This document shows positions 5,707 to 52,800 of a stretch of DNA of 64,000 nucleotides, piece by piece. The position numbers and the translations under genes were made by a program. Below the pieces are notes generated by a model. It was not told the DNA's origin. It ran no database searches and was given only the letters and a program-made list of their open reading frames with translations. The stretch is from Octopus vulgaris. Lineage: Eukaryota. Position 1 is the first letter of the stretch. Each line of letters begins with the position of its first letter. The stretch is from assembly GCA_951406725.2 (NCBI GenBank), contig OX597839.1, forward strand, positions 10,106,001-10,170,000, written 5' to 3'.

Positions 5707-6039
5707 ATGATGATGCCTGTGTCATTGCCCCCTATGACAGGGCCGCCTCCACAACTCCCCAATATGAACCACCCTCCACCCAACATGCCTCCTCGATTCA
5801 ATATGCCACCTCCCATGGCCATGTCTCAAGGACCTGGCATCATGCTTCCTCAAGGTTCCCAGCAACAACAACAACAGCAGCAGCAGCAGCAACAACAACA
5901 ACAGCAATTACAACAGCGTAGCTACATGCAACAGAAAATGATGGCCAGCCAAGGGATTATGTTTGATGGCAAACGGATGAGGAAAGCTGTCCACAGAAAA
6001 ACTGTGGATTATAATTCAGCTGTTGTGAAGTATCTTGAG
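5707..6039 (+). CDS. WDR33: WDR33 coding exon 1 (Pro/Met/polyQ N-terminus plus RNA-binding FDGKRMRK motif)
   Basis: Acceptor ttttcag ends at 5685, so a non-coding exon lies upstream. ATG at 5707; ends ...VVKYLE|gtattc, phase 0. Confidence 0.93.
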
Positions 6040-8030
6040 GTATTCTTTAATTTCTTTATACTTTGATTATATTGTATTAGGTGCAGGTGTGGCTGTGTGA
6101 TAAGAAGTTTGCTTCCCAACCACATGGTTACAGATTCAGTCCTACAGCATGGCACCTTGGGCAAGTGGGATCTTTTCGGTTTGAACGGCAGTTTTTTCTA
6201 GCAGTGTCATATGAAATTGTCACCCATAATTATGACCATAGTATCGATCTATTGCATTTCAATCTGTTTTAGGGTTAGGGGTGGGGTAAGGGTATCTTTT
6301 TTCTTCACAAATGTAAATAAACCCAATCTGTTTCTTAAACAAGGGACATATTCATACGGCACAGAATGTTTTTTACCTCAATGGACGTCAGTGATTGGTT
6401 GAAATTGCAGAAACTGAAGGAAAAAAAACAACAAATATCTTTTCAAACTATAGAATTTTCTCAATAAAGCTAAGAGAAAAAGATGTTTTATAAACACATT
6501 CTACCAGTATACGAAGTTTAAAATTTTTTAGTTACCTAGAAATTATGTTAAAAACTGCCGTTCAAACCGAAAAGATCTGGCAAGTGTCTTCTACAGCCTT
6601 GGGCCAACCAAAGCCTTGTGAATAGATTTTCCTCTCATCCTCTAATCTTTCTTTACCTATTTAACTGCTGTCAGCTACTTTTTAAATTTAGTCTCTGATC
6701 TTTAGACTATTTCATCGGATTTCTACCACCAATAAAGTAATAATACTGTACGCATATAAATTACTAACAGCGCTGAGCTGGCAGAAACGTTAGCACGCCG
6801 GGCGAAATGTGTAGCTGTATTTTGTCTCGCTACGTTCTGAGTTCAAATTCTGCCGAGGTCGACTTGGCCTTTCGTCCTTTCGGGGTCGATAAATTTAGTA
6901 CCAGTTATGCACTGGGGTCGATGTAATGAACTTAATCCGTTTGTCAGTCCTTGTTTGTCCCCTCTGTGTTTAGCCCCTTGTGGGTAGTAAAGAAATATAA
7001 ATAAATTACTACCTAAACACTCTGTTTTTAAAATCAGGCTTCCCTACTGTTGTTTCGTTATAAAACTCTAGAAGTGAATCTGATAGAAGCCTGTCTCATA
7101 TGTGTCTACCTGTGCGATAACTGTAAACAGGTTTATTATCATAGATACAGGTGGTGTCATTCATTTTCAGCCTTCTCTGAAAAACCTGTTTAGATGTTAA
7201 TATTACCTTGCTTTGAAACAGGTGAAAGTTGGCATCAGGAAGGACATTTGGCTGTAGAAAATCTGTCCCACTGAACTCTGACTCATGCAAGCATTGGGAA
7301 GTTTATGTTAAAATGCTGGTGATTGTGTGTGTGTGTGTGTGTTTGTATTAATAAGGTTTGATGAGAATCACTTGTATAGTATTTATCTTCACTAACTGTT
7401 GATTTTTGTTTGCAGAATCGACTCTATCAAAGGGACCACCGTGACTTCCGAGCCATTCAACCAGACTGCCTTTACCAAGAAGGGGTGAGAATCCAATTTG
7501 CATAAATAGAATTGTTTTTTTTTTTTATATCCACTTAAAACACATGCTGGAACTTCTTAATCTGTGATAAACTGATCTCTTAGAGAGTAAATCTGTTTAA
7601 TCCTCTAGCATTCAAATCAGCCATATTCAAACCAGCCAAATCTGGTATCTCACACCTATCTTACAATACCATTGTAAAAATAAAGCAATCACATCATTGA
7701 AATCTCAAAGCTATGAGACAATGCATGATTGATTCAAAACAAAATATAAGCAATATCCATATACTCTTATACATACCCATGTATACATACATATGCAGAG
7801 TATATATACTTTTACAAGTGTATAAATACATAAATAAACACAATTAAACAATAGGTCCAAGTAAATAGACCATTCGTTGTATACATATATACTGGAACAT
7901 ATACATACGTCTATGCTCATGATACTCATATTGATATTGGTGTATATGTATATGTATGTATGTATATATATATGTATGCATATATGTATGTGTATATGTA
8001 CATCTATATATATATGTGTTTATCTGTATT

Positions 8031-11000: not shown

Positions 11001-11695
11001 GTAACGGAAGCTATCAACTACTTCTAGTTTTTCTCCCTGGAATGTGAAAGTTGTTTTCTGCACATTTTCAGTGTTATTTATTGCTCCTGAACAACTGCAA
11101 CATACAAAAACTATCCTCCCAGTTAGCCTTCTTTTCATATTGTTGCACCTCTTATGTGTCCATAGCTTACACTGGGTACATTATATAGAGTTTCTACCTA
11201 GACCTTTTCTACACTTCAAGCAGGGCCATCTACCTGAATGGATTTATGGTTTGCTTGCTTCCTACTTATTAGGACTTAGGTTTTAGCTAGGTTGACTCTA
11301 AGGCCCTTCGATTCTAATCCTTGTTTCCATACTTGAAACTTCTCTAGTTCTGATAGTGACTCAGTAATTAGAGCAAGGTCATCAGTATAGAGGAGTTTGC
11401 AGGGGCAACCTGTCTTCAATTCCTCCGTTATGTTCATATATATGTATATATATATATATATATATATACATATATATGTATGTATGAATATTTATATATA
11501 TATATGTATGAATATTATATATATGTATGAATATATATATATATATGTATATATATGTATGAATATATATATATGTATATATATGAATATATATATATAT
11601 GTATATATATGTATGAATATATATATGTATGAATATATGTATATATATATGTATGAATATATATATATATATATGAATATATGTATATATATATG

Positions 11696-11736
<41 letters not shown>

Positions 11737-11955
11737 AATATATATATGTATATATATGTATGAATATATATATGTATATATATGTATATATATATATGTA
11801 TATATATGTATGAATATATATATGTATATATATGTATGAATATATATATGTATATATATGTATGAATATATATATGTATATATATGTATGAATATATATA
11901 TATATATGTATGAATATATATATATATATGTATGAATATATATATATATGTATGA

Positions 11956-12000
<45 letters not shown>

Positions 12001-12011
12001 AATATATATAT

Positions 12012-12042
<31 letters not shown>

Positions 12043-12112
12043 AATATATATGTGTATGTATATATATGTATATATATGTATGAATATATATATATGTATA
12101 TATATATATGTA

Positions 12113-12158
<46 letters not shown>

Positions 12159-12434
12159 AATATATATATGTATGTATATATATGTATGAATATATATACA
12201 TGTATGAATATATATGTATGAATATATATATGTATGTATATATATGTATGAATATATATACATGTATGAATATATGTATGTATGAATATATATATGTATG
12301 TATGAATATATATACATGTATGAATATATATATGTATATATATATGGATGTATTTGTATGTATGTATATGTATGTGTATATATATGTATATGTGTGTGTA
12401 TATATATATATGTATGTGTATGTGTATACATATA

Positions 12435-12465
<31 letters not shown>

Positions 12466-12470
12466 GTATA

Positions 12471-12512
<42 letters not shown>

Positions 12513-12658
12513 AAGTATATATAACCGCAGATCCACCAAAGCCTTATGGGTGGATTTGGTAAATGTCTACTGGAAGAAGCCAGTTGTGAATATATATCTA
12601 TATATATAAAACCGAGAATATCTGTCTCAGTATATATATAGTGGTTTTTCTCTTATAT

Positions 12659-12709
<51 letters not shown>

Positions 12710-12809
12710 GAAATTTGATTTAATACTAAATTTGGAGTTGTACTCCCTATTATTATTATTATTGATATTATTATTATTATTATTATATATGTATGTATGT
12801 GTGTATATG

Positions 12810-12867
<58 letters not shown>

Positions 12868-12925
12868 TGTGTGTATATGTATATATATGTGTGTGTGTGT
12901 ATATGTATATATATGTAAGTATGTT

Positions 12926-12968
<43 letters not shown>

Positions 12969-13653
12969 TTGTGTGTGTATATGTATATATATATTTGTAT
13001 GTGTGTATGTGTATGTATGTGTGTGTATATATGTATATATATATGTATGTATGTATGTGTATATGTATGTGTGTATGTATGTGTATATGTATGTATGTGT
13101 GTATGTATGTGTATATGTATGTATGTGTGTATATATGTATATATATGTATGTATGTGTGTATATATGTACATATATGTATGTATTTGTGTGTATATATGT
13201 ATATATATTTATGTATGTACGTGTATGTAAATATATATGTATTTAAGTGTACGTATATATATGTATGTATATGTATGTATGTATGTTTGTATATGTATAT
13301 ATATATATATGTGTGTGTATATGTATGTATATATGTATGTGTTTATATGTATGTATGTGTGTATGTATATGTATGTGTGTGTATATTTGTATGTATGTAT
13401 GTGTGTGTGTGTATATTTATATGTATGTGTGTGTATATATGTATGTATGTGTGTGTATATATGTATGTATGTGTGTATATATATGTATGTGTGTGTATAT
13501 ATGTATGTGTATATATATATGTGTGTGTATATATATATATATGTATGTATGTGTGTACATATGTATATGTGTGTGTATATATATATATATGTATGTATGT
13601 GTGTACATATGTGTATGTATGTATGTATATATATATATATGTATGTGTATATG

Positions 13654-13684
<31 letters not shown>

Positions 13685-16600
13685 GTATATATATGTATGT
13701 ATGTATATATGTCTATATATATATATGTGTTTGTGTGTGTGTATATATATATATATATTTATATAAAAATTCAAAGGTAAAAGTTATCAGAATAATTTAT
13801 AGCAGTGGTGAGCATATGTAATACAAGTCAGAAAACATCCATATTTTTATAATATAGGAATGTATAAAAATGTATACACAGCCCTAAAAAGGACAGTCAA
13901 ATCCCAACCTACGAAAAAAATTTTTTTACCAATGTCTCATTGCTTGTAAATGAGATGGACACTTGAATGATCAAATAAATGAATTAATTAGCGAATCACT
14001 TGATTAATTAACAATCTGTGGCTCAACAGTAGAGTCAGTTGAACATGTATAATTACGAAACTATAATATGTACGGAAAACAAAGTAAACGCGTTCGCACT
14101 TAGTTCCATCTTTATACATCAAGAATTCAAATTGAATGTCCTCAAGCAGTGTGCCGAGTCAGAATAGTACAGCAGTGAATAAATTCAGTTGCATATTATC
14201 TGGCTAAAGAATTGAAATATTTAACTATATAAATACAACTGTCCTTTTTAGCATGTAAGATGTCCACATGGTGGTCTTCTCTCCATGTATAAATTTTTAT
14301 ACACTCTTATATATATATATATCATCATCATCATCGTTTAATGTCCGCTTTCCATGCTAGCATGGGTTGGACGGTTCAACTGGGGTCTGGCAAGCCCGAA
14401 GGCTGCACCAGGCCAGTCAGATCTGGCAGTGTTTCTACAGCTGGATGCCCTTCCTAACGCCAACCACTCCGAGAGTGTAGTGGGTGATTTTATGTGCCAC
14501 CGACACAGGTGCCAGACGAGGCTGGCAGACGGTCACGCTCGGATGGTGTTTTTTATGTGCCACTGACACAGGTGCCAGACGAGGCTGGCAGACGGCCACG
14601 CTCGGATGGTGTTTTTTTTATGTGCCATATATTTATATATGTATGTATATATGTGTGTATATAGGAAAATTGAATTAGGGAACAAACACTTGGGTTGTTG
14701 TTAAACCATTTATATCTTGAAGTCTTCTCCATATGTTTCGATGAATACATTCCCAAAATGTCTGGCAGGATCAATTAAGATCAGTAATGCATCAATCTCA
14801 TCAGGAAGGATAAAAAACTTGACCCATCAAACAGACATGTTAACAGAAATAGAAAGTCATTTAAAATGTAATGTATTTATATTCATATGCACACCTGTGT
14901 ACACATGCTCATTATGCTACATGTAAACATAAACATATGCATACAAAGAAAAACAAGCTTATATAAACACATATACATCCACATGTATTAATATACATAC
15001 ATATACACATAAATATATATATATATATGTATATATACACACACATATTTTTATATATAAACATATACATAAATATGTACATATGCATACACACATATAT
15101 TCAAATTCATACATACATAGGGTAGAAATATACTCACACACATATGCATATATATCTACACATATCTGAATCCTCCTTTGGTCACGACACTGATCATGGG
15201 ATTGCACCTAGAAAGTTATCCTCCCAGGCACAAGTCCGGGCAAGGTTGCTTTATTGAAGACCAGCAGTCGCCCATGCATACCGGCCTCCCCTCTCCACGC
15301 TACCAGTGTTATCCAAGAGTAAGGCAAGGGCCGATACAGCTTGGCACCTGTAACGTTGCAACTCATTTCTACAGCTGAGTGAACTGGAGCAACGTGAAAT
15401 AAAGTGTCTTGCTCAAGAACATAACACGCAGCCCGGTCTAGGATTCGAGCTCACAACCTCACGATTGTAAGCTCGACGCTCTAACTACTGAGCCATGCGC
15501 CTTCTACACATATACATATTCTCACAACAATGACATAGAAACATACTTATGCTAAAATATACGTATACGATCACATACTTATACACATAAACAAACGATC
15601 GTACATACACAAGAGAATACACATTGCAAAGCATTGATAGACCCAAACACATAATTGTATACATATACACACACTTAAGCACTTATACATATATTTTGTC
15701 TGCCGTTACGTTCTGAGTTCAAATTCCGCTGAGGTTGAATTTGCCTTTCATCTTTTCGGGGTTGATAAATTAAGTACCAGTTATGCACTAGGGTCGATGT
15801 AATCGACCTAATCCATTTGTCTGTCCTTGTTTGTCTCTTCTATGTTTAGCCCCTTGTGGGTAATAAAGAAACACATATACATTATTGTTCATTCACAAAA
15901 TACTTACATACAAACAGGGGACGCTAGGAATTTAAAATGACATTATTGAAACAAACTAGGTATTGTGAGAGGAGAAGATGTATTGAAAGATTGGGAGGGG
16001 GAAAAGAAAGGATAAAACAAAGTAAAAAAAAAAAGAGTGGGGAGAGGAACAGGCGAGTTGTAAATATAAAAACATGCATAAAAAGAAAAGGAAATAGGGG
16101 GATAGAGGGGAAACTATTGGAAGAAAGCTGGAAGAAAAACTAAAATAAAATTTACAGAAATTATTATTAGGTTATGGGAAGAAATTATTTGAGTGTGTAT
16201 TTGCGTGTGTGCATATGAATATAAATGTTACATTTTATAGGAATTTCTATTTCTGTTAACATGTTTTGTTTGATGAGTGTTGTTATTTATGGCCTTCCTG
16301 ATGAGATTGATGCATTGCTGACCATAATTTATCCTGTCGGACATTTTTTTGCGCACACCTGTGGATACATATGTGTATGCCCCCATGCATGTCTACATAT
16401 GCACACAAACATATACATCTACGTATACAATTATTTCTCGTATATCTGTGTATGTGTGTGTGTGTGTAAAATATAATCCTTCATCATGTGTTGACTAGAA
16501 AATAGTCCAATATTGAGGTATATAAGTCTTGTAAGGGAAAAAGTGGGCATTACTAAGCATGATCTTTCTATCCTCCATCTCCATACCTTACTCCCCCCTC

Positions 16601-17716
16601 GTCCACACTAATTCTGTGTTCTCTCTCTCCACAGCTTGTACCACCTCTCAGTATGTTACATAATCCAATGAACTGTGTGGTCACCAAATTTGTCCGTACC
16701 TCAACCAACAAATTCAGATGTCCAATCTTTGTCTTAACGGTATGTAATATTTTATATTTTCACTTGTCTACTGTATATTCTCACCTTCTCTTAATTTAAA
16801 AGCTTTCATTGTTTTTTTTTTAATCATGTTTAATTATCCTTATCTTTTTCTGTGACCAAATTTTTAATATTTTAATATTTAAGAAAGTGCTAAGCTGGCA
16901 CAATCACTACTGTGGATTTGGATTGCTGATCCCTCTTTTGTATCCACATTATGCAAACTTTCCTCCCATGTGTTCTCTGCAACAAAAGAGGCTTGGCAGT
17001 GCCACTATGGAAGGTTATGTAGAGTCACTAACTGCAAATGAACCATCATCCATGTGAACACACTTCTCTGCCATAACATCACAATTTTCCCTGGCACACT
17101 GTCTTGCAAGCCAAAATGTTTCAAGTCTCTGGTCCTCATGCTGTAAGACATTGGCAAAACTTCTTTTCTGCTTCTTTTTCGGAACAGCCTGCTTGTGATA
17201 TTTACGTACATGTGACTGAGTATCTACAGACGCATGTACCCATAACATAGTTCTCGGGAAGACTCAGTGTGACACAATGTGACAAGGTTAGCCCTTTGAA
17301 ATATAAGTACAACTTATTTTTACCAGCTGAGTAGACTGGAGCAATGTGAAATAAAGTGTCTTGCTCAAGAACACAACACACTGCCAGTAACTGAACTCCT
17401 GACCTTGTGATCATGAGCCAAATACGCTAATCACTAACCATGTAACTTCATCTATATATCACAAGCTGTGGATTAAGCTTCTTGATACTCAAAACGGAGA
17501 ATGCAATGTTATGGGAGCTTAACGGAGTCATGTGAACCATTGTCATAAGACAAAAGCAGAAACTCTCTGAAAATATCGAAATTTATTTTATAAATACAAT
17601 TTGGAATCAGTCACAGCATGTTACTGGGTGTTCCTTCAGACAAACTTCAATGAAAATTCTTTCAGTTTCAATCAAATCACTTATCTCATTATGTACATTA
17701 TATATGTATGTGTGTT

Positions 17717-17751
<35 letters not shown>

Positions 17752-20700
17752 ATATGAAGTTAATAAAAGAAAATGGAAAAGAAATATAGTGGATACTTAA
17801 TTAATTTTATTTGTATCATGATGAAAAAGAGTAATACATCATCACACCTCACTCCTCCCTCCTCCATTCTAATTTCCATAGACCATTCAAATTTTAAATT
17901 ATAATATTCAAAAATTCTCATGCTAACTTATCCCAAATTTATTCAATAATCTATAATATTTATTTCATTCTTAAATGGAATATACATATATTCCACTATT
18001 ATACACTTATAACCATTATAATTACCCTTTTGTTTTCAATAATTTACTTCATCAGCCTCTATTTATATTTTTTCCCCATGTAACCCCTAGTTTTTAAAAA
18101 AATACTATTGCTATGACTTTTTATCTTTTGTTTTCTAAAATCTTAACCAACATCGACAACTATTGAAACTTTTAATCTATCTATGTATGCACCTAAAGAA
18201 CTCCACATGTATGTGTATGTATATATATATATATATATATATATGTTTGTGTGTATGTCTCCAGACACACATCTATTTATATACACCCACACATATACAA
18301 ACATATTAATTTCTGTGTAGCTGTGATTTTGTGCATATTTGCTTGTGTAAACCTCTGTTTGGTAAAATAAATGAAAATCTAATTTTGTGTTTTATTCAGT
18401 GGACACCTGAAGGAAGGCGTTTAGTAACTGGTGCTTCCAGTGGGGAGTTCACTCTGTGGAATGGTCTTACTTTCAATTTTGAAACCATCCTTCAGGTAAG
18501 GAAAAGACGTTTTATGCTACTACCCCCCCCCCACACACACACACTCTACTACTACTACAACAATTGTTAGCCATATCAGCTTGCTATATTGCTGGGCCAT
18601 TTGATGTCAAGTTGCATGCGCATACACACGCATAGGTGAGGGTTGGCAGTAGGAAAGGCATCTGTCTGTAGGAAAAATCTGCCTCAAAAAAGCTCCATCT
18701 GACCAATGTACGCATGGAAATCTGGATGTTAAATGATATTATACGAAACAAGCATTTTTGCCACATAGTGGAATTGAACCGGAAACCATGTGGTTGGAAA
18801 GCAAACTTCTTAATCACACAGCTTTACCTGTACCTATATTGTCACAGAAAAAAAATGGGACAGTGATTATGTCAAGAATACTTTTCATCATTAGGTTAAC
18901 TATGTGAAGTCCCCCTCATCAAATACTCTCCATAAGGAGACCTAGTAGCCCCCTTGATGTTGATATGGTCCAGGAAGGAATGGAAATGCTTTGTTCTTTG
19001 ATCTTTCCCTTCAGTTTCACAGAATATAGTTTACTGTTTGTATTTAAACCATACACAGTCCTCTTTTTTTTGAAGATTTTCTGTGTTAACCTTTTAACAT
19101 TCAGATATTACTCTGTCAAATATAATGCTTATTTATTCAAAATGTTTTCACTCAATCCTGCATTGTCTTGTAAGCTTCAAAATTTCAACAATGCAGTTAT
19201 TTTTAGACTGACATTGTAGGGTAAGTGTAAGAGACCAGACTTGCTTTGTTTGAACATAAATCAGATAGAATATTTGGGCTGGACATGGCGAGTTTAAATG
19301 TTAAGGGATTAAAACCAAGCTGAATGGTCACAGCTGGGATGTTTTCCATCATAATAGGGGCTGCTGGATCAGGACTGTATTGGGACTACTATTAGAGCAT
19401 TTTCCTTTCTTAATGCATATGCAGATATCCAAATGTATGAAAATTAACCCACTTTCATCATGTAGAACGTGTATGTATATATGTATATATGATGTCTTAC
19501 ACTGGTGGTTCTCAACTTCATCCACATGACCCTTGGTGGGGATGAGGTCCATATAAGATTGTTAAAATTCATGTTATAAATTGCTTATACTTCTATTATA
19601 CACAAAATATTTTAATCTTTTTCATACAAGTCCTAATAGTATTTAATGAAAATACAGTATGATTTTTTTTTTATATACATTGAATGGCTATGGTAGTCCA
19701 TTAGAATGAACCAGGAATCAAAGGGGTCTGTAGGCAAAAAATGATTGAGAACTACTGTTTTAGACTATATCTGTATGTTTGTATGTATATATCTGTGTAT
19801 GTGTGTAATTGCATAATTATGGAATCTTCCCTTTCTTCTTTGTTACTAGGCACATGATACATCAGTGCGTGCCATGGTGTGGAGTCACAGCGACACTTGG
19901 ATGGTTACTGCAGATCATGCTGGTTATATAAAGTACTGGCAATCTAACATGAATAATGTAAAGATGTTTCAGGGCCATAAGGAACCAGTTCGAGGTATCA
20001 GGTACGCTACACGGAGTCCACAACTGGCCTGGGCAGGCAGTAGTAGGAACGCTCTTACCTTCATTTCTGAAATTATTGGCACCATCTTCTGTGCCTTTTT
20101 TAATGTTGTTGCAGTTTATTTAACCATTACTAGATCTCAGGGTTCTTCTGTTGATGAAAAACTATTAATGTATGGTGAAGACATCCTAGATTCTGGCTAA
20201 AGTTTGTGAGTTACTGTAGCAATTTGGATTTTGTCTGTTTGGTCCAACTGTTCAGATAGCATGTGTGTTTAATAACCTTGAGTTTACTCTTACATGCTCC
20301 TCTGATTTGGTTGACATACTGGGTCCAGTCTGGTCTGGTTACTGTTTGGACATTGCAAATTTATGGGTTGCTGGATCTGAATGATGGTCACTGCTACATG
20401 TTCATGGATCATTGGGCCCGGATATAGTAGCGGTGGCCTCTGCTACATGTCTGGATTACTGGGCCTGAATGTTGCATAGGTGGTCATTGCTTCATGTTTA
20501 TGGATCAGTAGGCCTGAATGTGGTAGTGGTGGTCACTCATATATTTATCGATCATTATACCTGAACATGGTGGTGACAGTGGTCATTACAACAAGTTTAG
20601 AGTGAGGCCGTTATCTCCAGGTGTAGTTGCTGGTGTGATGTAATGACTTGCGACATGTCTTGGGTATTTAAAAACTTGCAGGGCCCATTCCTCTTCAGTT

Positions 20701-23700
20701 GGCTTCTTATGAGGTGAAAGTAGGTGAGAAAAATGAGCGACATCTTTCTCTTTTTCCTACCCTCTTTCATCTCATGAAATCTACTCCAATACCAGACTGG
20801 TAATTTATTTATCAACTCTGAAAGGACAAAAAGCAAAGTTAACATTGATTGAATTTGAAATCAGAGTACAGAAAGCGGGAATAAAAATTGCAAAGCAATA
20901 AACTATACATAAATGTATCACTGGATCTGAATGTAATGGTGATGGTAACGTCAGCTACTGGTTCTTGATATGGCATTGTAGCTGGCCTACAATATTTTCT
21001 TTTATTTTGCCACAGTCATTAGGCTGCAGCCGTGCTCGGGCACCACCTTGAGGAATTTTAGTTGAACTAATCGACCCCAGTATTTATTTTTTTTTTTAAG
21101 CCCGGTGCTAACTCTACCGGTCTCTTTTGCTGAACCATAAGGTACAAGAACATAAACAAACCGACACTGGTTATCAAACAGCGGTGGGGGACAGACACAA
21201 AGATACACACATGCACACATATACAATGGGCTTCTTTCAGTTTCTACTAAATTGGCTTTTGTTGGCCCAAGGTTATAATAGGAGACACTTGCCCAAGGTG
21301 CCATGCAGTGGGACTGAACTCATTGCCATGTGGTTGGGAAGCAAACTTCTTACCACACAGCTATGTCTGCATCTTTATTCTTTCATTCCTTAGTCTATTA
21401 AGACTGATGCAGTGTTTTCTTTCATATTCTGACACTCATCAGCATTTAATATCCACTTTTCCATGCTTGCATGGGCCAGGTGGGATTTGTTTGGGGAAGT
21501 GAGTTTTTTTTAAAGACCTGAATGCCCATCCTCTTAACCAATTTTTGTTTCCAAGCAAGAAAATATTTCTCATGGCCAGGCATCTTTTTCACAGAAGACT
21601 AGAAGCAAACATTGCTTGTATGCTCATTTACAACCACCATGCGATGTCATGACTAGGGTGCACACACACACACACACACATTTACGAAAGCCCACTACTA
21701 TATGGGCTTTCATGGTTTCCTTCTATCCACAAAGCTAAATTTTTGAGGGCTAAATCTATTTAATTTAAATGTTACCAGCCCTGTCACATATATATGTTGG
21801 TTCTGCAAGGAGATTATTATTATTATGATGTCTTAGTTTAACTCTTTCGTTACCAACCTGGCTGAAACTGGCACTGGCTCTGAGTACAAATGTCTTGTTT
21901 TCATAAGTTTTGAATCAAAATCTTCCACTAAACCGTAGTCACAATTTATGTTCCTAACACTACCTAAATGATAACTAAGTTATTTTACTAAATTCTTTGT
22001 TTTATTTAAAGTAATTGAGCGAAACACAGAGTATCTCAAAATAAATACAGTAACAAATGGGTTAATGTCTGTGGAATAGTCAGGCAGTTAAACTATTATA
22101 CGAGGTAGGCCAATGGTTCTCAACGGGGTCCATATAACTCGGGGGAAGGGGGTCCATGTAAAATTTAAAAATTAAATGCAATAAAATTGGTTATATTTCT
22201 ACAATACACAAAATATTTCAATGTCTTAAATACAATTCCTAATAATCAGTTATAAAGATATTTACTCTTTTACTTGTTTCAGTCAATTTGACTGTGGCCA
22301 TGCTGGAGCACCACATTTAGTTGAACAAATCGACCCCAGGACTTATTCTTTGTAAGCCTAGTACTTGCTCCATTGGTCTCTTTTGCCAAACCGCTAGGTT
22401 ACGGGGACGTAAACACCAGCATCGGTTGTCAAGTGATGTGGGGGGGGGGGGCAAACAAACACACACACACACACACACATGTATATATATATATATACAT
22501 ATACACGACGGGCTTCTTTCAGTTTCTGTCTACCAAATCCACTCACAAGGCTTTGGTCGGCCTGAGGCTATAGTAGAAGACACTTGCTCAAGGTGCCACG
22601 CAGAGGGATTGAACCCGGAACTATGTGGTTGGTAAGCAAGCTACTTACCGCACAGCCACTATAGGATTTTTGAAACATTGAATGACTGTGGGGTCCAGTA
22701 GAGTAAAATAGGAATCGAAGGGGTCCATAGGTAAAAAATGTTCGAGAACCACTCAATCTGTCCCCATAATTCATAAAGCAATTTTGTAGTGTAGATTCTG
22801 CCCAAAGATTACATTAAATTTACAAAGTGTTTGTGTATGTTCAGCACCTTACACTTTAATACAATGAGTAGGTAGTTCTATTGATTGAACAACTGGAACA
22901 TACACCAAAACTGATGTATAACCCACCCATCATAGAAAGTAGATTATTTTCTAAAGATAAAATAACTGTTTAACTATTGTGAGTGTTAAAACTGAAATAG
23001 GGATCTATGCTGTTCTTTTGGGTAACTTATTTACTATATTGAAAAAGCACAATTCTCCATTCCTTAGAATTTGAAATTTGGGATGTCTGAATCCTCTCTA
23101 GGTTATTGTCTTATTTTCGAAACTATGTTATTTTTATTCCATTTCAATTAAACTGCACTGGCATTAATTATGTATATGTATTTTTTTTTTTAATTCAATT
23201 TAATCTTCATCTTTATTTACTAATTAAATAAAGTTGTTTTTTTTTTTCTTCTCCTCTTAACCCTAACCCTCTTCCATTTGCTCAACTAATAAACTTAAAA
23301 TCTGGGTTTGGCCCCTATTCCATGCTTTGCCATAATACCACTTCAATAAAGCTGCTTCCTTTCTCTGTTATCAATAAAGTTGATATCGTATATATTTGTG
23401 TGTATGTGTGTGTGTATATATATATATTTGTGTATATATCCCTTTCAAAGATGATGCGTTATAGATGTGCAAAGAATTTGGTTGCCTTTATGATTTAGAT
23501 TTATATATTTCTTGTAAGAAAGTTTTCTAATTTCATTAGATATGCAATGTGTGTGTTTATGTTTATCTCTCTGTATGTGTCTGTCTGTGTGTATTTGTGT
23601 TTTAACACAATACATTAAACTAACCTACTTTTAATGATTTATCAAATTAGGTCATGTTATATTTTGCCTTATTTAATTCTTCAATAGAGATGAAAAGATA

Positions 23701-26700
23701 TTGTGTTGTTTATTCACATCTGGGTCTAAACCAGAGTGATCCTTGTTGTGAGTTTCTGGGAACTAATCAGGTGTCTCTGCTATTCTATTAAGAGTTATTT
23801 CTTTGGCTTTACAATCTTATTTTTTTCATTGTCTAGTTTCCATTTTCTCTGTTAATCACATCGAACTCCATTACTTTACTGAAAAGAATTTTAGCAAGAC
23901 CTCTCTGCTTAGTTATATAAAGCAGCATAGCATTCTCACATAACTTTGCTTGTGTATTGTTGGTCATACAAGATACCATTCCCCCACTTTACACCAAAAA
24001 TTGGTTAAATGTTTCTTCTTAATCACAAGAGAGTACCGTTGAATTTTAATATCAGTTAGATTAATTTAAGTAAACTATATCATATACAGTATTATATACT
24101 GATCAGTTAACTACTAGCCAAGCTAATTTTAACTATACCAAGTGCATCATATTATATTACAGTTTTCTCTGCTCACATAAATAAACTAGTCTTTAAACTA
24201 TTGGATATTATTAGTAGTTGCGATATGAAGTTAGATTACCCCAGGTTTATTGGACTTAACATAAAGTTTATGTAATATAAGTTTGTTTCAACTGTATTTA
24301 CTAAATTTTGTTATTAATTTAAACAAGATTCTCTAGATTTATCTAAGTGTAAGATTATTTTGATCAGTGAAAACTGGTACTCTTTCAGTTAGATGATGAG
24401 TGTTCCAGTTGGTGTGATCAGTGGAACAGCCTGCTTGTGAAATTATTGTGCAAGTGGTTGAACACATGTACCGTTAATGCAGTTCTCAGGCGGATTTAGC
24501 ATGACCCAGAATGTGGCAAGGCCGACCCTTTGAAATACAGGTACTACTCGTTTTTGCCAGCTGAGTGGACTAAAGTGTTTTGCTCAAGGGCACAATGCAA
24601 TATCAGGTATCAAACTCATGACCTTACATTCATGAGCTAAATACCTTGACCACTCAGCCACATGTATAGAGCAGGGAAATAACTCAGAAAAAACAAGGAT
24701 TTAAATGTTAATTTGGTTTTTGAGTAGGAGGAATGTTTGATAGTTGCAAACTCTTACACCTCATCCATTTTCAACTGTTTCTTACTTTCTTGACGTTGTA
24801 AGACTGGTCAGCGAAGGGTGTTTTGTGATTTTGTTGTTTGTATGGGACAAATCACAAAAATACCCAGAAAATACACAAGTTAACTTAAAAGATATTAGTT
24901 ATCTTGTACAAAATTGGTTGACAGATAATAGTTGTCTTATAGAGAATTGACTGAGAGGTGCTAGTTGTTATCTTGTAGATAATAACTGCTTGGTAAATGG
25001 CAATTATAGAATGGAATATTTATATTCTATATGTGTTGTCTTCTCTTGACTACATTCACCCCAAAGATTGGTTGTAATGCTGTAAGACTTAGATAAATGT
25101 CTCTTTATTCAAAGTAGTGAATATTGTTTGTCTTTAAATCTCTGAACTCTTTTAACTACAAGGGAGTTGGTTTCTATGTTGCTCTTATTTAATTTGCATC
25201 TTAGTCAATATCAGTTATATTCAATATCAGTTATATTGCTACCTAATATGTCTGTTGTCACTCATGTCTGTTGTCAGAGTTGAACTTGTTTTCAGCCTTG
25301 TAGACTGTGCTGTCCAAGAACATGACACAAACTGTTGTGATGTGCATAAGCAATAGTCCATTACTTTGCATCTTGTTTTGAGTTATGGTTGGTCAGAATT
25401 TTCTCTGTAAACATGTTCAGCTATGTCTTTCTGCTGGTCTTATATCTTGTATTGTTTCTATTTCAAATACTAATGGTACAGGAGAAGGTTGATTCATAAG
25501 CTACAACATTCACAGAAATAGATCAGTCTTCATTTTTTTTTGTTTTTGTTTTTTTGTTCCCCTCTGAATATTTTAGGGAATTCAATGATTACATTTTTTT
25601 AAAAATAGGTCACATGTCTGATCCTTCTGACATAACTCTTTTTCTTTTATTCTTCCACAAAATTTTATCTATATTTTGCTCTGCAAATTTCTGAATCTCT
25701 GTTAGTGGCATGGCCCTTAGTATTGATTCCCAACTTAAGTTGCCAATTTAACTTTGAGGAAAAAAAAAAAAGAAAAGGAATGAATGTCAACTCTTCAACT
25801 TGCTATTTTTTTTAATATATATAATACTTTTTATAATACATCTTTGATCTTGTCCCAGAATAGAATCTCCAGGAAAACAATCCCATTTAATCCCTTATGT
25901 TTAACCCTTTAACATTTAGGTTACTCTGACAAATAATATTAAGCTTATTTTATCATATTGTTTTGAATTAATCATGCATTATATCATAGCTTGAAGATTT
26001 TGATGATCTAATTGTATATTTTTATAATGACATTGTAGTGTAGGTATGAGAGGTTGGATCTGGCTAGTTTGAACATTAAACAAGTAGGATATTTTGGCTG
26101 GATATGGCCAGTTTAAATGCTAAAGAGTTGAACTGGGTATGTGATATGACAACAGTGGTGATGATGTTGAGGAATAAGTTTTATATTTCATTGTCCTGAA
26201 CTTTAAGTTTTTACTGAACTGAAACAGGTGGATACTCTTGACACATTTCTTAGACATTTTAAGAAACCTTCATCTTATTTGAACTAAGAGTTGCTAATCG
26301 ATGTTTGCATATCCTGCTGCTTGTTTTTTTTCCTTTTTTTTTTCTTTGGCTTTTCATCTTTACCCTGCCCTTGTCCCAGTGGGCATCTTATTAATGATAA
26401 AGAGGAATATATATATCCACGTGAAACTGAAATTGCTCTTTCAATAAACACATTCGTTCATCCTGTCAGAATGATTACCTGTCTTACTCTGTATGTTTGT
26501 GCATGTTCGCATACACCTATAAATATTATATATATATAATATCGACTTTTGAAAAAGTCTATAAATGCAAAAAATACGAATTCAATGAAAATGTTAAAAA
26601 AAAAAAAAAATTTGATTTAATAAATATAAAAAACAACAACCAAATCAATGTTAATGAAAAGGGATATTATTGGCCTGTTTACACTTTCTGTTTCTATGGC

Positions 26701-27162
26701 AACAACTTAGTATCACTGGCAACAGTATCAGTAGCCGAACAATTTGTATATATATTCATATACATACATATATATATATATATCAATAAAATAAAATTTT
26801 TGCCCCTCTCCCACATGATTATTATGATTGATTATTATTATTATTTGTAAGATTAAATAAAAATAAGAAAAATAAATAAATACCTTTTTTCTTACGTAAT
26901 AAAGATAAGATTTCTTAATAAAAATAATTTGGTAAAAGTAAGCCATTTGTATCTGTTGTCTTTATTTTCACGACAACTCTCATACGTGTATGACTAACTT
27001 GTCCATCTGTTTCCTCTTTAGAAAGGGTTTGTCTGGCAGGTTTCAGGGGAGTTGTTTCTGGTGAGGGAGGTAATAACACACATACCATTACCTTCTTTTT
27101 ATAAACGATCTCAAAAAGGATGTTTAACTGCTTTCTCCATCTGCAAGTGTAGATATCTCTGC

Positions 27163-27193
<31 letters not shown>

Positions 27194-30100
27194 ATAATTC
27201 TTCATATATTTGGGTATATCTCTTCCTGTATAATATACATCTGTTGGTGTATATTATTTCGATATGCATGTATCTATATCTGTGTGTATATATATATAAT
27301 ATGGTTTTTGGGGTCAGTTCCTCTGTCCAGCACCTTGACTATGTATCTTTCATAATCTCATACTGACCAAAGCTTTGTGAATGAATTTTTGTAAAAGAAA
27401 ACTGAACGAAGTTTGTGTGAATGTATTTATGTATATATCTATTTTCTATGTATATGGATGATGACTGCTGTGTAAAGAAGTGCCGATCTCTAATTGTAGG
27501 GAAACTTGTTGGTCAGATTCTACAGTATCGGTTGCAGTCAGTAGTATAGTGTAGCAATAACAGCAATTGTTGGTGTCATGGTAAGGCGAGCTGGCAGAAA
27601 CATTAGCACGCTGGGTGAAATGCTTAGCGGTATTTCCTCTGTTGTTACGTTCTGAGTTCAAATTCCTCCGAGGTCGACTTTGCCTTTCATCCTTTCAGGG
27701 TCGATAAATTAAGTACCAGTTATGCACTGGGTTCGATGTAATCGACTTAATACCTATGTCTGTCCTTGTTTGTCCCCTCTATGTTTAGCCCCTTGTGGGT
27801 AATAAAGAAATAGGTAATACAAGTTAGTGTGGGTGTGTAAAGAGTTGATGGGGGAGAAAGATCACTGAACAATTGCTGAACTTCAAGGTAAGGTTGCTTA
27901 GTAGGCAATGTATTTTGAGAAGTTCTTTGTTCAGATGGGGCTACTTTATTTGAAGGTGTGAATTGGTGATTGTGTGAAGGAAAAGTGAGAAATGATGAGT
28001 AGGTGAAAGGTAGATGAAATGAGGTAGTTAGAAAAGCCAATTCATGCTATTCAGTTCAGATCTGTTCTTTTATCTTTTACTTGTTTCAACCATTAGACTG
28101 TGGCCATGCTGGGGCACCACCTTAAAGAACTTCTTTTCGTCGAACGAATTGACCTCAGTACTTATTTTAAAACCTGGTACTTATTCTATTGATTCTTTTG
28201 TTGAACTGCTAAGTTATGGTGATGTAAACAAACCATCACCTGTTATCAAGCAGCAGTGAGGGGGACACACACACATAGATATACATTTGATGGGCTTCTT
28301 TCTTATTTCTGTCTATCAAATTCACTCACAAGGCTTTGGTCAGCCCGTGGCTGTAGTAGAAGTCACATGCCCAAGGTGCCATGCAGTGGGACTGAACCTG
28401 GAACCATGTGGTTGTGAAGCAAGCTTCTTACCCCACAGCCATGCCTCTTGTTGATTTCTGGTTTATATTACTGAATGAGAATCATCCTTAATTATTAAGT
28501 TACTAATATTTTGGTCAGTGGCTAAAGTGGACATTCCAACTTAATGGTATGGTTACAACCTTTATGAAGATGTTTCTTGATCAACGGAGTACATGTATGT
28601 GCAAGTAAGGTGTTCCTTAACCCGTTAGCTTTCAGATTATTCTATCAAATGTAATGCTTATTTATTCCAATTTTTTTGAATTAGTCATGCATTATCCCAT
28701 AGGTTTTGATGATGGAATAACTTATTTTTAGATCGACATTGTAGGATAGGTGTGTGGGGCCAGACCCAGCCAGTTTGAACATAAAACAGAATATTTTGGC
28801 TGGATATGGTCAGTTGAAACACTAAAAGGTTAATCTGAGTGTGGGGTTTCTGGATTGTGCTGCCAAAATAGTGACCCTTCATTTATGGCATTTTACCTAA
28901 TACATGACATATGCACCTAGACATATTTATGTCCCTGGTAGGGCTGTTTGTTAGCACCAACATGTTGGTCTCAAGAGTTGTTGTTTTTTTTGGTTAAAAT
29001 TCAGTGTAAAGAGGGTCTAGAGTGGCTTAGACATTTATCTAGCCCCTCCTTGTGGATGGCTTTTTGGTGGTAGTCTTAAGCTGTGACAGTTTAACCTTTG
29101 AATATTCAGATTACTGTCAAAAGCAGTGCTTGTTTATTCACATTGTTTTGCATTAATCATACAGTATCTTTTAGCTACAAGATTTTGATGATGTGATTGC
29201 TTAGTTTTAGAATGACATTGTAGGGTAAGGTATGAGAGGTCAAATGAGGCCAGTTTGAACAAAAAACAGGTAGAATATGTAGATAGGTGTGTGGGGCCAG
29301 ACCTGGCCAGTTTGAACTTAAAACAGAATATTTTGGCTGGATATGGTCAGTTGAAACACTAAAAGGTTAATCTGAGTGTGGGGTTTCTGGATTGTGCTGG
29401 GTTTAAATGCTAAAGGGTTACAGAAGCAGATGTTCTTGTGGGCATTCTGCCATTTTATGTAAAGGAATCTGTTTGGGATGAGTGAAAGATGTATGTAAGT
29501 GACTTAGTCAGTCACCTTGCTACACTTATCACAAACGCATGCAAACTAATTTTGGATGTAGATGCCTGTTGTAAAGAAGGATTAGGAGTCAAAGGTGTTG
29601 AATGTTAGACTTCCAAAACATTCATGTGTGTTATTGCAAGCAGGGTGAGACACTGGTTCCTACTGGTAGTTCAGAGGTTGACTTTGCAGATGTAATGGTT
29701 GAAATATGCTCCCTCCTCTTTCTCTTCTCCTTTGAGACAGCTGGTGCTTTGACACCACTGCATCTTGTTGGCCAGAAGTACCTCGGGTTAATGAATCTAA
29801 TGAGCCAATAGTCTTATTTATAACTTCAGCGAACAAAACTTTGCTGATCCATGATGATCTCTGCTAACCAACAACAAATTGAGACACACACTCACACACA
29901 TATTATTAGCGATAGAAGCAGTATTAGTACTGAATAGCAATTTGCACATCCTACATAATGTGGTATATGTACAGATTAATTTATATCTTAATGTAATAGA
30001 TTTTCTGTAATAATTTGCATATGTTACTTATAGCGAGGTCATTACCAGTACCGCCTGACTGGGCACGTAAAAGCACCCACTACACTCTCGGAGTGGTTGG

Positions 30101-49800: not shown

Positions 49801-52800
49801 TTTGATCCACCTATGACTTTCCCATTTTGTTTTTCGCCAGACACAGTGTATGCAAGGTCTACTTCTTTTGAACCCTTTAGCATTCAGATTACTCTGTTAA
49901 ATTTAATTATGCATTATCTTGTGGTTTTGAGATTTGAAGGATATGTTTCTTTTATCTTTTACTTATTTCAGTCATTTTGACTGTGGCCATGCTGGGGCAA
50001 CATCTTTGAAGGGGTTTTTTTTTTAGTCAAAAACATCACCCTCCACCAATTTATTTTATTGGTCTCTTTTGCTGGACTGCTAAGTTACAGGGATGTAAAC
50101 ACACCAACAACTGTTGTCAACACACACACACACATACATGGCTTTGGTTGGCTTGTCACTTGCTCGAGGTGTCATGCTGTGGGACTGAACCTGGAAGCAT
50201 GTGTTTGGGAAGCAAGTGAGAGGCTGGGTCTGGCTAATTTGATCACAAAACAGGTCGAATATTTTGACCAGATATGGGTGGCTTAAATGCGAGAAGTTTA
50301 CATGATCAGGGAACTCATGCAAAATTCAAACCCATTATCTATATTTCTAGCTTTTCTACCCTTTCATCAGCTTGAATCCTCACCTACAAATAATGAATTT
50401 TAAGTCATCTTTATTGGCTTGGTGTGAAATCACCATAAGTTTTGTCAAATTTCACTAATTTTTTTTATTTTCCTTTCCAGTTTTTGCCCAACAGATGTGA
50501 AGTTCACCACATGTTCTGATGATGGCACTGTTCGGATCTGGGACTTCCAGAGATGTCACGAAGAAAAAATTCTGAGAGGTAAGTTTCTCTGTTGCAGGAA
50601 TTTATATATGCTACATCTACAGTCCACTGTCCTGTCTACTGAACAGGAGAGCAGCACTGTAAAGGGAGCTTCTATATGGTTATCTCTATATATATAAATG
50701 GCAAAATGTCTGTGTGCGTGTCCTTTATACAAATCCATAATTTTTCAGTTAGAGGGCTCGCACTTTCTATGGTCATTCAAAACCATCCAAGGATGGTCGT
50801 GCACATCTTTACATTTCCCCAATCACCCCGCAAAGCCATTAAAAAATCAATAGAAGTGACTTTTTTGTGAATTTTCTATCCAAAACCCAATCAAAGTGCC
50901 TGAAACTTGATACGCCAATTGAATGCCAGCTAGCTGTATGTGATTGGTCGGAGATTTGGACAGTACTTGCGTGTATGTGCGCACGCATGCAGCTGTATAT
51001 GCATGCACTAGCACTATGAAATTGCAGCCCAAATCCCTCAAATTACATCCTACTGACTTGCAAAAGGAATGTCGATACACAATTCTTAAGAAAAAGATGG
51101 AATGGTCATAGCTGGAAGGTCTTTGATCATAGGTCTGAATGGTGAGGGTTAAGAAGAGTTGACAGACTCATTGTATTTTCAGGCCTTTAACCTTTCAGCA
51201 TTTGGATTACTCTATCAAATGCAGTGATTATTTATTCACATTGTTTTGAATTAATCTTGCATTATCTTGTAGCCTCCAGATTTAAATGATGTGATTGTAT
51301 ATTTTTAGAATGACATTGCAGAGTGGGTATGGATCTAGCTGGTCTGAACATAAAACGGGTGGAATATTTGGGTTGGCTATAGCCATTTTAAATACTAAAT
51401 GGTTAAACGTGACAGAAAGAATATTCTTGTTATATCTGAGTTTAGTGTGAAAACTATATTGTGTTAGTGGGTGTAAGGGGAAGATAGGTTGGGAAAGAAT
51501 TTCCTTCTAAGGGATTTATACAGTTCTGGGAAGAAGGATTGGAGAGACGTGTTTAGGAAGGAGTATGTTGCATAAGAAACTATTTGGCAGGGTTAGTCTG
51601 AAGGATGAGAGGGAGAGAGGTGATAGGGTAGGTATATATCAGAAAGATTTATTTATATGTCTATAAAGGTAAATGATCTTATTATATTTATTATCAAATT
51701 ATATTTATTAACTTTGCTGGTGCCATGTAAAAAGCACCCAGTCCATTTGGTAAAGTGGTTGGCATTAGAAAAGATATCCAGCTGTAAAAATGATGCTAAA
51801 ACAGACAGTAAAGCCTGGTCTAGTCCTTTGATTTACCATCTCCTATCAAGTCATCTCACTCATGTCAGCATGGAAAACACGAATTAAATGATGATGTTAA
51901 TGAACAATAACTCATTTCAGACATTTTGTTATACGGTATTTTTCATCACTGGTTTTCTTTTCTTTTTTCTTCTTCTTTTAAGGTCATGGAGCTGATGTCA
52001 AATGTGTTGACTGGCATCCACAGAAGGCACTCATTGCTTCAGGCAGTAAAGACAACCAACAACCCATTAAACTGTGGGACCCTAAGACATCGCAGTCTTT
52101 AGCTACAATGTAAGACCTGTGTTTCTATTCATGTGTGTGTGTATGTTTTCTCTTCTGTTTTTAATTATTTGAACTCTTTCTCTAAGGAAGAAGCTAATTT
52201 CTAACAAACATACAAAGCTCCATCATTGGAATGTAGATAATAAAACAAATTTGCATTTTAATCTTGAGAAAAGTCTTGCATATGTTTACTGTTCCACTTA
52301 CAGTTTGTATTTGTAACATGCAAGTTAGTTGGTTGATTTGTTTTTCTGAAAACCTTAGCTTATCCAGATTGTCAGACTGTCACAAAACCAAGTGCACTGA
52401 TTATTATTGGTATAAATGCAAATTTGTAATCTGGATGTAGAAGCTGGAGGCTTCAAAGCATTTGTCCATAATTATCCTTTTTCTCTTTGATTTGTACCAC
52501 TTTGCCAGTACCACTTGACTGGCCCTCTTGCTGGTGGCACGTAAAAGCACTCACTACACTCTCGGAATTGTTGGCGTTAGGAAGGGCATCCATCTGTAGA
52601 AACTCTGCCAGATCAAGATTGGAGCCTGGTGCAGCCTTCTGGTTCGCCAGTCCTCAGTCAAATCGTCCAACCCATGCTAGCATGGAAAGCGGACGTTAAA
52701 CGATGATGATAGTGGTTGCGATCGTGGCGTGGCAGCGGCAGCACTTTGTCAGCTCTATGTGAATCATTTATTCTATAATGTTGATTTCTTGTTCATTTAT

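What the first reader, a model, noticed from the sequence alone, without database searches (positions are those of the whole stretch)
20002..20200. Exon-5 read-through would give a truncated WDR33 with a transmembrane-like tail
Seen: in AT-rich intron sequence the frame stays open for about 66 codons past the donor ([66 protein letters not shown]). The product would be about 317 aa with the RNA-binding N-terminus, only about two WD repeats and a 27-residue hydrophobic stretch. Recalled: human non-canonical WDR33 isoforms diverge at this junction, carry hydrophobic C-termini and were reported as ER proteins acting on STING. Inference: an analogous membrane-anchored isoform; the tails show no sequence similarity by eye.
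Basis: partly seen in the sequence, partly recalled or inferred. Interest (0 to 1): 0.75.

Follow-up and report, generated by a model that had tools for sequence, protein, structure and literature searches.

The report
Octopus WDR33 short membrane-type isoform
In this octopus-like cephalopod, RNA from the gene for the mRNA-end-processing protein WDR33 runs on past a weak splice site into an intron whose reading frame is conserved in squid-type relatives, which would give a short, likely membrane-anchored form matching one already described in humans, flies and sea anemones.

Summary
Observation confirmed: the frame stays open for 66 codons past the donor at 20001/20002, giving a 317-aa product with a predicted hydrophobic helix. 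The junction is the orthologue of human WDR33 intron 6, so this is the cephalopod counterpart of WDR33v2/NET14, already reported in human, Drosophila and Nematostella (PMC11019558). This scan also found it before on cartilaginous-fish DNA. New here: (1) spliced RNA contigs continue through the donor in 4 of 4 own-species runs laid; (2) other coleoids keep the tail (20-21 of the first 22 residues identical, 65-67 aa in all but one record); (3) across animals the donor is non-consensus, avoids an immediate stop, and indels keep the frame (28/41 vs 77/300 after the stop), though amino-acid constraint is weak (pN/pS 0.8). Not shown: a nearby poly(A) end (RNA cover continues 6 kb into the 30.5-kb intron), the protein itself, membrane insertion, or any STING link. 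Two STING profiles found nothing in this genome (inconclusive). Best reading: slow splicing at a weak donor yields a V2-like tail-anchored isoform and probably also limits full-length WDR33. New member of a known kind; modest interest.

The parts
5707..6039 (+). WDR33 coding exon 1 (Pro/Gln-rich leader and the GKRMRK segment; its role in poly(A)-signal binding is recalled)
   Evidence: tblastn with P0002/P0001; GT donor
7416..7484 (+). coding exon 2
16635..16739 (+). coding exon 3
18400..18495 (+). coding exon 4 (first WD repeat)
   Evidence: GT..AG joint to exon 5 in 4 of 4 RNA runs
19850..20001 (+). coding exon 5 (second WD repeat), orthologue of human exon 6
19999..20007 (+). non-consensus phase-2 donor CAG|GTACGC; GTAA, GTGA or GTAG here would give an immediate stop
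   Evidence: sequence; donor survey
20002..20200 (+). intron-encoded in-frame extension, 66 codons including the junction Arg, TAA at 20198-20200
20002..20065 (+). near-invariant first 22 codons (20-21 of 22 residues identical in four other coleoid records); protein-level or RNA-level constraint not separated
20072..20128 (+). predicted transmembrane helix core (tail residues 25-43, product residues 276-294), followed by 23 mostly polar residues
20002..50480 (+). intron 5, 30,479 nt, about 53% of the coding span; RNA contigs cover it at least to 26000
20880..22185 (+). first AATAAA/ATTAAA hexamers (20880, 20897, 22040, 22171, 22180); no drop in RNA cover seen there, use not shown
50481..50578 (+). 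coding exon 6 of full-length WDR33 (third WD repeat); the gene continues to a stop near 63384

Best explanation
This is the cephalopod counterpart of the human WDR33v2 junction: RNA with exons 4-5 spliced runs on through a non-consensus donor into intron 5, and such transcripts would encode a 317-aa, two-WD-repeat protein with one predicted membrane helix near its end, likely inserted into the ER or nuclear envelope as a tail-anchored protein. Shown: junction orthology, RNA through the donor, open frame conserved in coleoids, frame-keeping indels and excess hydrophobicity in several other animal lineages. Inferred: the weak donor slows removal of the 30.5-kb intron; some transcripts are cleaved and polyadenylated further inside the intron (site not found); selection keeps the frame open and the tail hydrophobic rather than a particular sequence; the same event diverts transcripts from full-length WDR33, in the manner of the CstF-77 intron-3 feedback. 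A STING partner is not needed for this reading and is not supported here.
For: RNA: exon 4-5 GT..AG joint in 4 of 4 own-species runs from 4 studies, a contig through the donor in all 4, one contig (X10 record 8) holding both the splice and the read-through, and unique parts of intron 4 uncovered; the same pattern in a sister-species run X14. Spliced read-through proteins P0001 (307 aa) and P0232 (309 aa) from squid-type relatives. Coleoid tails 65-67 aa in 5 of 6 records (P0224 runs on to 110), 20-21 of 22 first residues identical, length differences of whole codons. Donors: at this junction 0 of 20 distinct (cluster, +3/+4) types are AA or GA and 1 is AG, against 7 of 14 AA at the exon-4 donor of the same loci; 7 of 87 read-through proteins stop at once. 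In-frame run of 45 or more codons in 9 of 15 lineage clusters, against 1 and 3 of 15 in the other frames. Indels that are multiples of 3: 28 of 41 in the first 135 nt vs 77 of 300 after the stop, p=2e-7; codon position 2 least variable. Hydropathy of 1.8 or more in 41 of 63 distinct tails vs 34 of 301 length-matched intronic ORFs; beats nucleotide shuffles (p<0.05) in 5 of 9 clusters, window p=0.027. Human intron 6 splices slowly and V2 needs its tail for ER location.
Against: No 3' end: X1 and X14 contigs cover the intron without a consistent drop from 20002 to 26000, which also fits nascent or detained pre-mRNA; no control long intron was laid, library type is not on record, and contig depth cannot rank parts of a gene. 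Amino-acid constraint is weak: tail pN/pS 0.80 vs exon 0.03, and tail pS (0.19) is half of exon pS (0.39), pointing to RNA-level constraint. 6 of 15 clusters have tails of 0-19 codons; 4 of 9 long-tail clusters are no more hydrophobic than shuffles. Some coleoid helices are marginal on a biological scale (sums -0.2 to +3.1). 19 of the 25 pairs come from one cluster and pairs were conditioned on long ORFs. An earlier tagging study lists WDR33 variant 2 as nucleoplasmic, not membrane-targeted (PMC2839517). Intron-derived tails are often hydrophobic by nucleotide bias and degraded through BAG6.
Confidence: 0.6

Rival explanations
1. Regulatory, unproductive event only: the weak donor and very large intron form a CstF-77/PCF11-type brake on WDR33; the conserved 5' intron stretch is an RNA element, and the hydrophobic tail serves to send the truncated protein to BAG6/proteasome rather than to anchor a working isoform.
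For: Intron 5 is about 53% of the gene with a non-consensus donor, the architecture described for CstF-77 intron 3 (abstract); synonymous positions of tails are constrained and pN/pS is 0.8; most octopus-squid tail differences need one base change; tails cannot be aligned between lineages; BAG6 triage of hydrophobic intron-derived tails (abstract); some lineages have the non-consensus donor without a long ORF.
Against: A brake alone does not need frame-keeping indels or a 65-67 aa length kept across coleoids, unless the degron itself is selected; no conserved RNA structure was found; human V2 has reported membrane-dependent activity.
Confidence: 0.25
2. V2 acts here as in human cells, as a STING regulator at the ER.
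For: Same junction and architecture as human V2; the paper proposes co-evolution with STING and NF-kB; Rel/NF-kB domains are present at two loci in this genome.
Against: No STING_LBD (E up to 10) or STING_TM match in the genome; the single Mab-21 match looks like the developmental MAB21L type (label recalled). These searches go exon by exon and had no control genome known to hold STING, so absence is not shown. No tail similarity to vertebrates.
Confidence: 0.08
3. Chance ORF and nascent RNA: the cover is ordinary pre-mRNA of a long intron and the tail is neutral.
For: Single-site probability of such an ORF is 2-6%; RNA cover runs on through at least 6 kb.
Against: 20-21 of 22 residues and the frame are kept between octopus-type and squid-type records, while tails of other lineages cannot be aligned at all; cross-lineage excess of in-frame ORFs, non-stop donors and 3n indels.
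Confidence: 0.07

Closest known systems
Human WDR33v2 / rat NET14 (Liu and Manley 2024, PMC11019558; Liu, Seimiya and Manley 2024, PMC11445923)
   Same: Same intron position and phase, first two WD repeats only, intron-encoded hydrophobic C-terminus, RNA retaining the 5' part of the intron.
   Different: Tail 66 aa vs 118 aa and not alignable to vertebrate tails; intron 30.5 kb vs 1.7 kb; first AATAAA about 680 nt after the stop and no poly(A) end seen, whereas human PAS0 lies in the CDS; STING not detected in this genome.
Drosophila and Nematostella V2 homologues (PMC11019558, section 15)
   Same: Invertebrate two-WD isoforms with predicted C-terminal TMD.
   Different: The section names no mollusc; Figure S7 was not seen. 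Here conservation within a clade and frame-level tests are added.
CstF-77 (CSTF3) intron-3 and PCF11 intronic polyadenylation feedback (PMC3708835 abstract; PCF11 from search listing only)
   Same: A 3'-end factor gene with one very large intron (about half the gene) and a weak donor.
   Different: CstF-77 short RNAs have no apparent protein product; feedback is untested for WDR33 here.
BAG6 triage of non-coding-derived hydrophobic tails (Kesner et al., bioRxiv 10.1101/2022.07.20.500724, abstract)
   Same: T-rich intron sequence giving a hydrophobic C-terminus that is either degraded or membrane-targeted.
   Different: Those tails are generally unconserved; this one keeps frame, length and sequence within coleoids.

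Membership tests
WDR33 V2-type isoform | Diverges from full-length WDR33 at the intron-6-equivalent donor, after two WD repeats | tested here: met
   Junction aligns to human residue 209; V2 tail starts after aa 208; next exon begins the third repeat
WDR33 V2-type isoform | In-frame intron-encoded C-terminus with its own stop | tested here: met
   66 codons, TAA 20198-20200; conserved in coleoids
WDR33 V2-type isoform | Transcripts retain the 5' part of the intron with upstream exons spliced | tested here: met
   4 of 4 own-species runs; X10 record 8 holds both features in one contig; X14; P0001, P0232
WDR33 V2-type isoform | Made by intronic or exonic polyadenylation | tested here: inconclusive
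WDR33 V2-type isoform | Predicted transmembrane segment in the tail | tested here: met
   KD19 2.23, biological-scale sum -0.24 (scale values recalled), helix with pLDDT 90-95; no TMHMM-type predictor was available
WDR33 V2-type isoform | Protein exists, sits in the ER and does not bind CPSF | not testable with these tools
   No proteomics, ribosome profiling or imaging
WDR33 V2-type isoform | Binds and regulates STING | tested here: inconclusive
   Binding not tested; no STING match in the genome, sensitivity unproven
CstF-77-type feedback intron | Very large intron with weak, conserved donor | tested here: met
   53% of the gene here; non-consensus donor across lineages. Large size is not general: 0.5-2.4 kb in 9 other loci
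CstF-77-type feedback intron | Use of the intronic site responds to 3'-processing activity | not testable with these tools
   Needs knock-down or U1 inhibition

The most novel reading that the evidence does not exclude
Coleoid cephalopods have kept a near-invariant V2-type WDR33 tail since the octopus-squid split while having lost cGAS-STING, so the ancestral job of V2 is independent of STING: a pan-bilaterian switch at one conserved weak donor that turns WDR33 output into a membrane-anchored two-WD protein and so sets the dose of the poly(A)-signal reader.
Probability: 0.2. Interest if true: 0.65.

Novelty: new member of a known kind. Interest (0 to 1): 0.36.

Why it matters
Endogenous V2 protein and its evolutionary depth are open points in the human work (limitations section). 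A tail kept in frame and almost unchanged across coleoids, plus frame-keeping indels in other invertebrates, is comparative evidence that the read-through is under selection well beyond vertebrates. If STING is really absent from coleoids, the published claim that V2 evolved with STING would be directly testable and probably incomplete. Otherwise it is one more taxon for a known isoform.

Tried and rejected
1) Hairpin hiding the donor: folds of 19970-20090 and 19850-20200 were no better than shuffles (z 0.43 and -0.27), and the best donor-to-intron duplex beat shuffles (p<0.05) in 0 of 27 loci; rejected. 2) Rfam: 0 matches in the window. 3) Tail alone: 0 hits among 1.84 billion representatives, 0 Pfam families, no alignment to non-coleoid tails (best z 3.6 among 145 distinct tails). 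4) Alternative donor GTGAGT at 20206 just after the stop: no joint there in the 4 runs; not supported. 5) Idea that the distal squid-type tail matches another frame of the window: scores negligible. 6) look-up of sequencing runs listed no holder on record as RNA ('no RNA holder listed'); the RNA nature of X1, X5, X9, X10 rests on their spliced joints. 7) Tail variants in sister species could not be read: the table hid 124 rows, so there is no dN/dS for octopods, and no squid DNA was obtainable. 8) No database-annotated cephalopod short isoform appeared (limited candidate sets, weak evidence). 9) Paper searches for cephalopod STING/cGAS gave nothing relevant. 10) No complex prediction was run: no candidate partner was at hand.

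Full report
Setting. The window holds one complete WDR33 gene on the + strand, coding span 5707 to about 63384, single copy for the exon-5 region in a 2.8-Gb genome. The closest full-length protein found (P0002, 92% identical over exon 5) clusters with a Sepia pharaonis record; that the host is an octopod is my inference from this and from the genome size.

Observation. The donor is ATCAG|GTACGC at 20001/20002, phase 2; normal splicing to 50481 restores ...RGIS-FCPTD. Read-through gives 66 codons to TAA 20198-20200 and a 317-aa product. The hydrophobic core (tail 25-43) has KD19 2.23 and is modelled as a confident helix in an otherwise weak single-sequence model. From the window alone, such an ORF has probability 2-6%, with this hydropathy 0.1-1.7%, and it is the longest of 12 donor read-throughs.

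Orthology. The exon aligns to human WDR33 159-209; human V2 keeps aa 1-208 and adds 118 intron-6 residues. A vertebrate-type locus, L077, has the intron at the same base, with donor GTTTAT and a 123-codon run. So the junction is orthologous; the tails are not alignable.

RNA. Four own-species contig sets from four studies all show the exon 4-5 GT..AG joint and a contig running from 19972 (or 19848) through the donor; X10 record 8 holds splice and read-through in one piece; unique parts of intron 4 have no cover. Contig depths after and before the donor are 22/97, 11.6/34.4 and 8.05/30.6 and 8.7/24.4 in sister-species run X14; the tool warns that contig depth cannot rank parts of a gene, so these are only indicative. 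Against a nearby poly(A) end: X1 and X14 cover the intron at roughly 3-22x to 26000 with no consistent drop at the hexamers 20880-22180. I laid 6 of 30.5 kb and no control long intron, so nascent or detained RNA is not excluded.

Conservation in coleoids. P0121 (octopus-type), P0001, P0122, P0225 and P0232 (squid-type; P0001 and P0232 include the spliced N-terminus) carry homologous tails of 65-67 aa; P0224 reads W at the stop and runs to 110. Of four records compared, 20-21 of the first 22 residues match the window; residues 23-46 match at 21 of 24 in P0121 and 8-9 of 24 in the squid-type records, mostly by hydrophobic exchanges needing one base change. The last 20 residues differ wholly between octopus-type and squid-type. 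No DNA was available, so protein and RNA constraint cannot be separated for this clade.

Other animals. Of 121 confirmed metagenome matches 80 were kept; with L001 that makes 81 loci, of which 78 showed the motif and 67 an intron at this junction, in 18 clusters, 15 long enough to score. In-frame runs of 45 or more codons: 9 of 15, other frames 1 and 3 of 15; 6 clusters have short tails of 0-19 codons. Donor +3/+4 types: none AA or GA and one AG among 20, against 7 AA among 14 at the exon-4 donor. Among 87 read-through proteins 7 stop at once (length limits of the searches bias against these). In 25 close pairs (5 of 30 dropped: 3 short ORFs, 2 poorly aligned; 19 from one cluster), indels were multiples of three in 28 of 41 cases in the first 135 nt vs 77 of 300 after the stop; with all 30 pairs, 29 of 61 vs 91 of 346. 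But pN/pS is 0.80 (exon 0.03) and tail pS is half of exon pS: frame and character are kept, exact residues are not, and the RNA itself seems constrained. Hydropathy exceeds length-matched intronic ORFs (41 of 63 vs 34 of 301; tails not independent) and nucleotide shuffles in 5 of 9 clusters.

Mechanism. Shown: weak-type donor, RNA through it, conserved open frame. Inferred: slow removal of the intron, as measured for human intron 6, lets some transcripts end inside it; these would be translated into a two-WD protein unable to form the seven-blade propeller, with a helix 23 residues from the C-terminus, the layout of a tail-anchored protein (own knowledge). The same event lowers full-length output, as for CstF-77 intron 3. 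The main rival is that the tail is a degron and the event purely regulatory. A donor-hiding hairpin was tested and rejected.

STING. PF15009 and PF23417 gave no match in the genome; PF03281 gave one match that looks like MAB21L (label recalled); the multi-exon control PF00554 was found at two loci, but it is a more conserved domain and no genome known to hold STING was searched, so this is a lead only. Five paper searches found nothing on cephalopod STING.

Literature seen. PMC11019558: abstract, sections 7, 15, 16 and passages; supplements and Figure S7 not read, and they may list more taxa. PMC11445923: parts 1-3 of 5. PMC2839517: one table passage, which lists WDR33 variant 2 as nucleoplasmic. 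PMC3708835 and 10.1101/2022.07.20.500724: abstracts. Searches listed no paper on a mollusc V2 (titles and abstract starts only). Earlier scan notes report the same isoform in cartilaginous fishes; I used them as leads only.

Verdict. A real, conserved feature; a new member of the known WDR33v2 kind; protein, poly(A) end and function unproven. Interest 0.36.

Noticed in passing
P0224 vs P0225, P0246 vs P0251, P0213 vs P0191, P0166 vs P0167: In four lineages a variant reads W where relatives have the tail's stop codon (TAG/TGA to TGG, an A-to-G change). Could be A-to-I editing of the stop or simple polymorphism; four hand-picked pairs, no DNA.
   Followed up: partly
P0001, P0023, P0042, P0043, P0054, P0122, P0161, P0165, P0167, P0171, P0182: Otherwise unalignable tails from several clusters end in V-T or I-T before the stop; the window's tail does not. 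P0047 has only RWDAVT. Unexplained; the antisense-to-donor idea failed on other loci, and only 5 of 63 distinct tails end so.
   Followed up: partly
G000, whole genome: No STING domain match and only one Mab-21 match: possible loss of cGAS-STING in this cephalopod.
   Followed up: partly
window 20206-20211: A consensus GTGAGT donor-like hexamer lies 6 nt after the tail's stop; no use seen in RNA contigs.
   Followed up: yes
window 20385-20537: 49-bp tandem array, 3.2 copies, just downstream of the stop.
   Followed up: no
window 22002-24001 and 26002-28001: AATAAA/ATTAAA clusters on the + strand (11 and 10 per 2 kb; the second against 3 on the minus strand), candidate intronic poly(A) regions; the second lies just beyond the stretch laid.
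   Followed up: no
window 11436-13765 and 8558-9140: A 2.3-kb degenerate (AT)n array with strong GC skew and a 0.6-kb (ATGT)n array in intron 2.
   Followed up: no
window 22690-23121, run X1: 17 differences in a 435-nt contig from the same species label: a divergent haplotype or a repeat copy.
   Followed up: no
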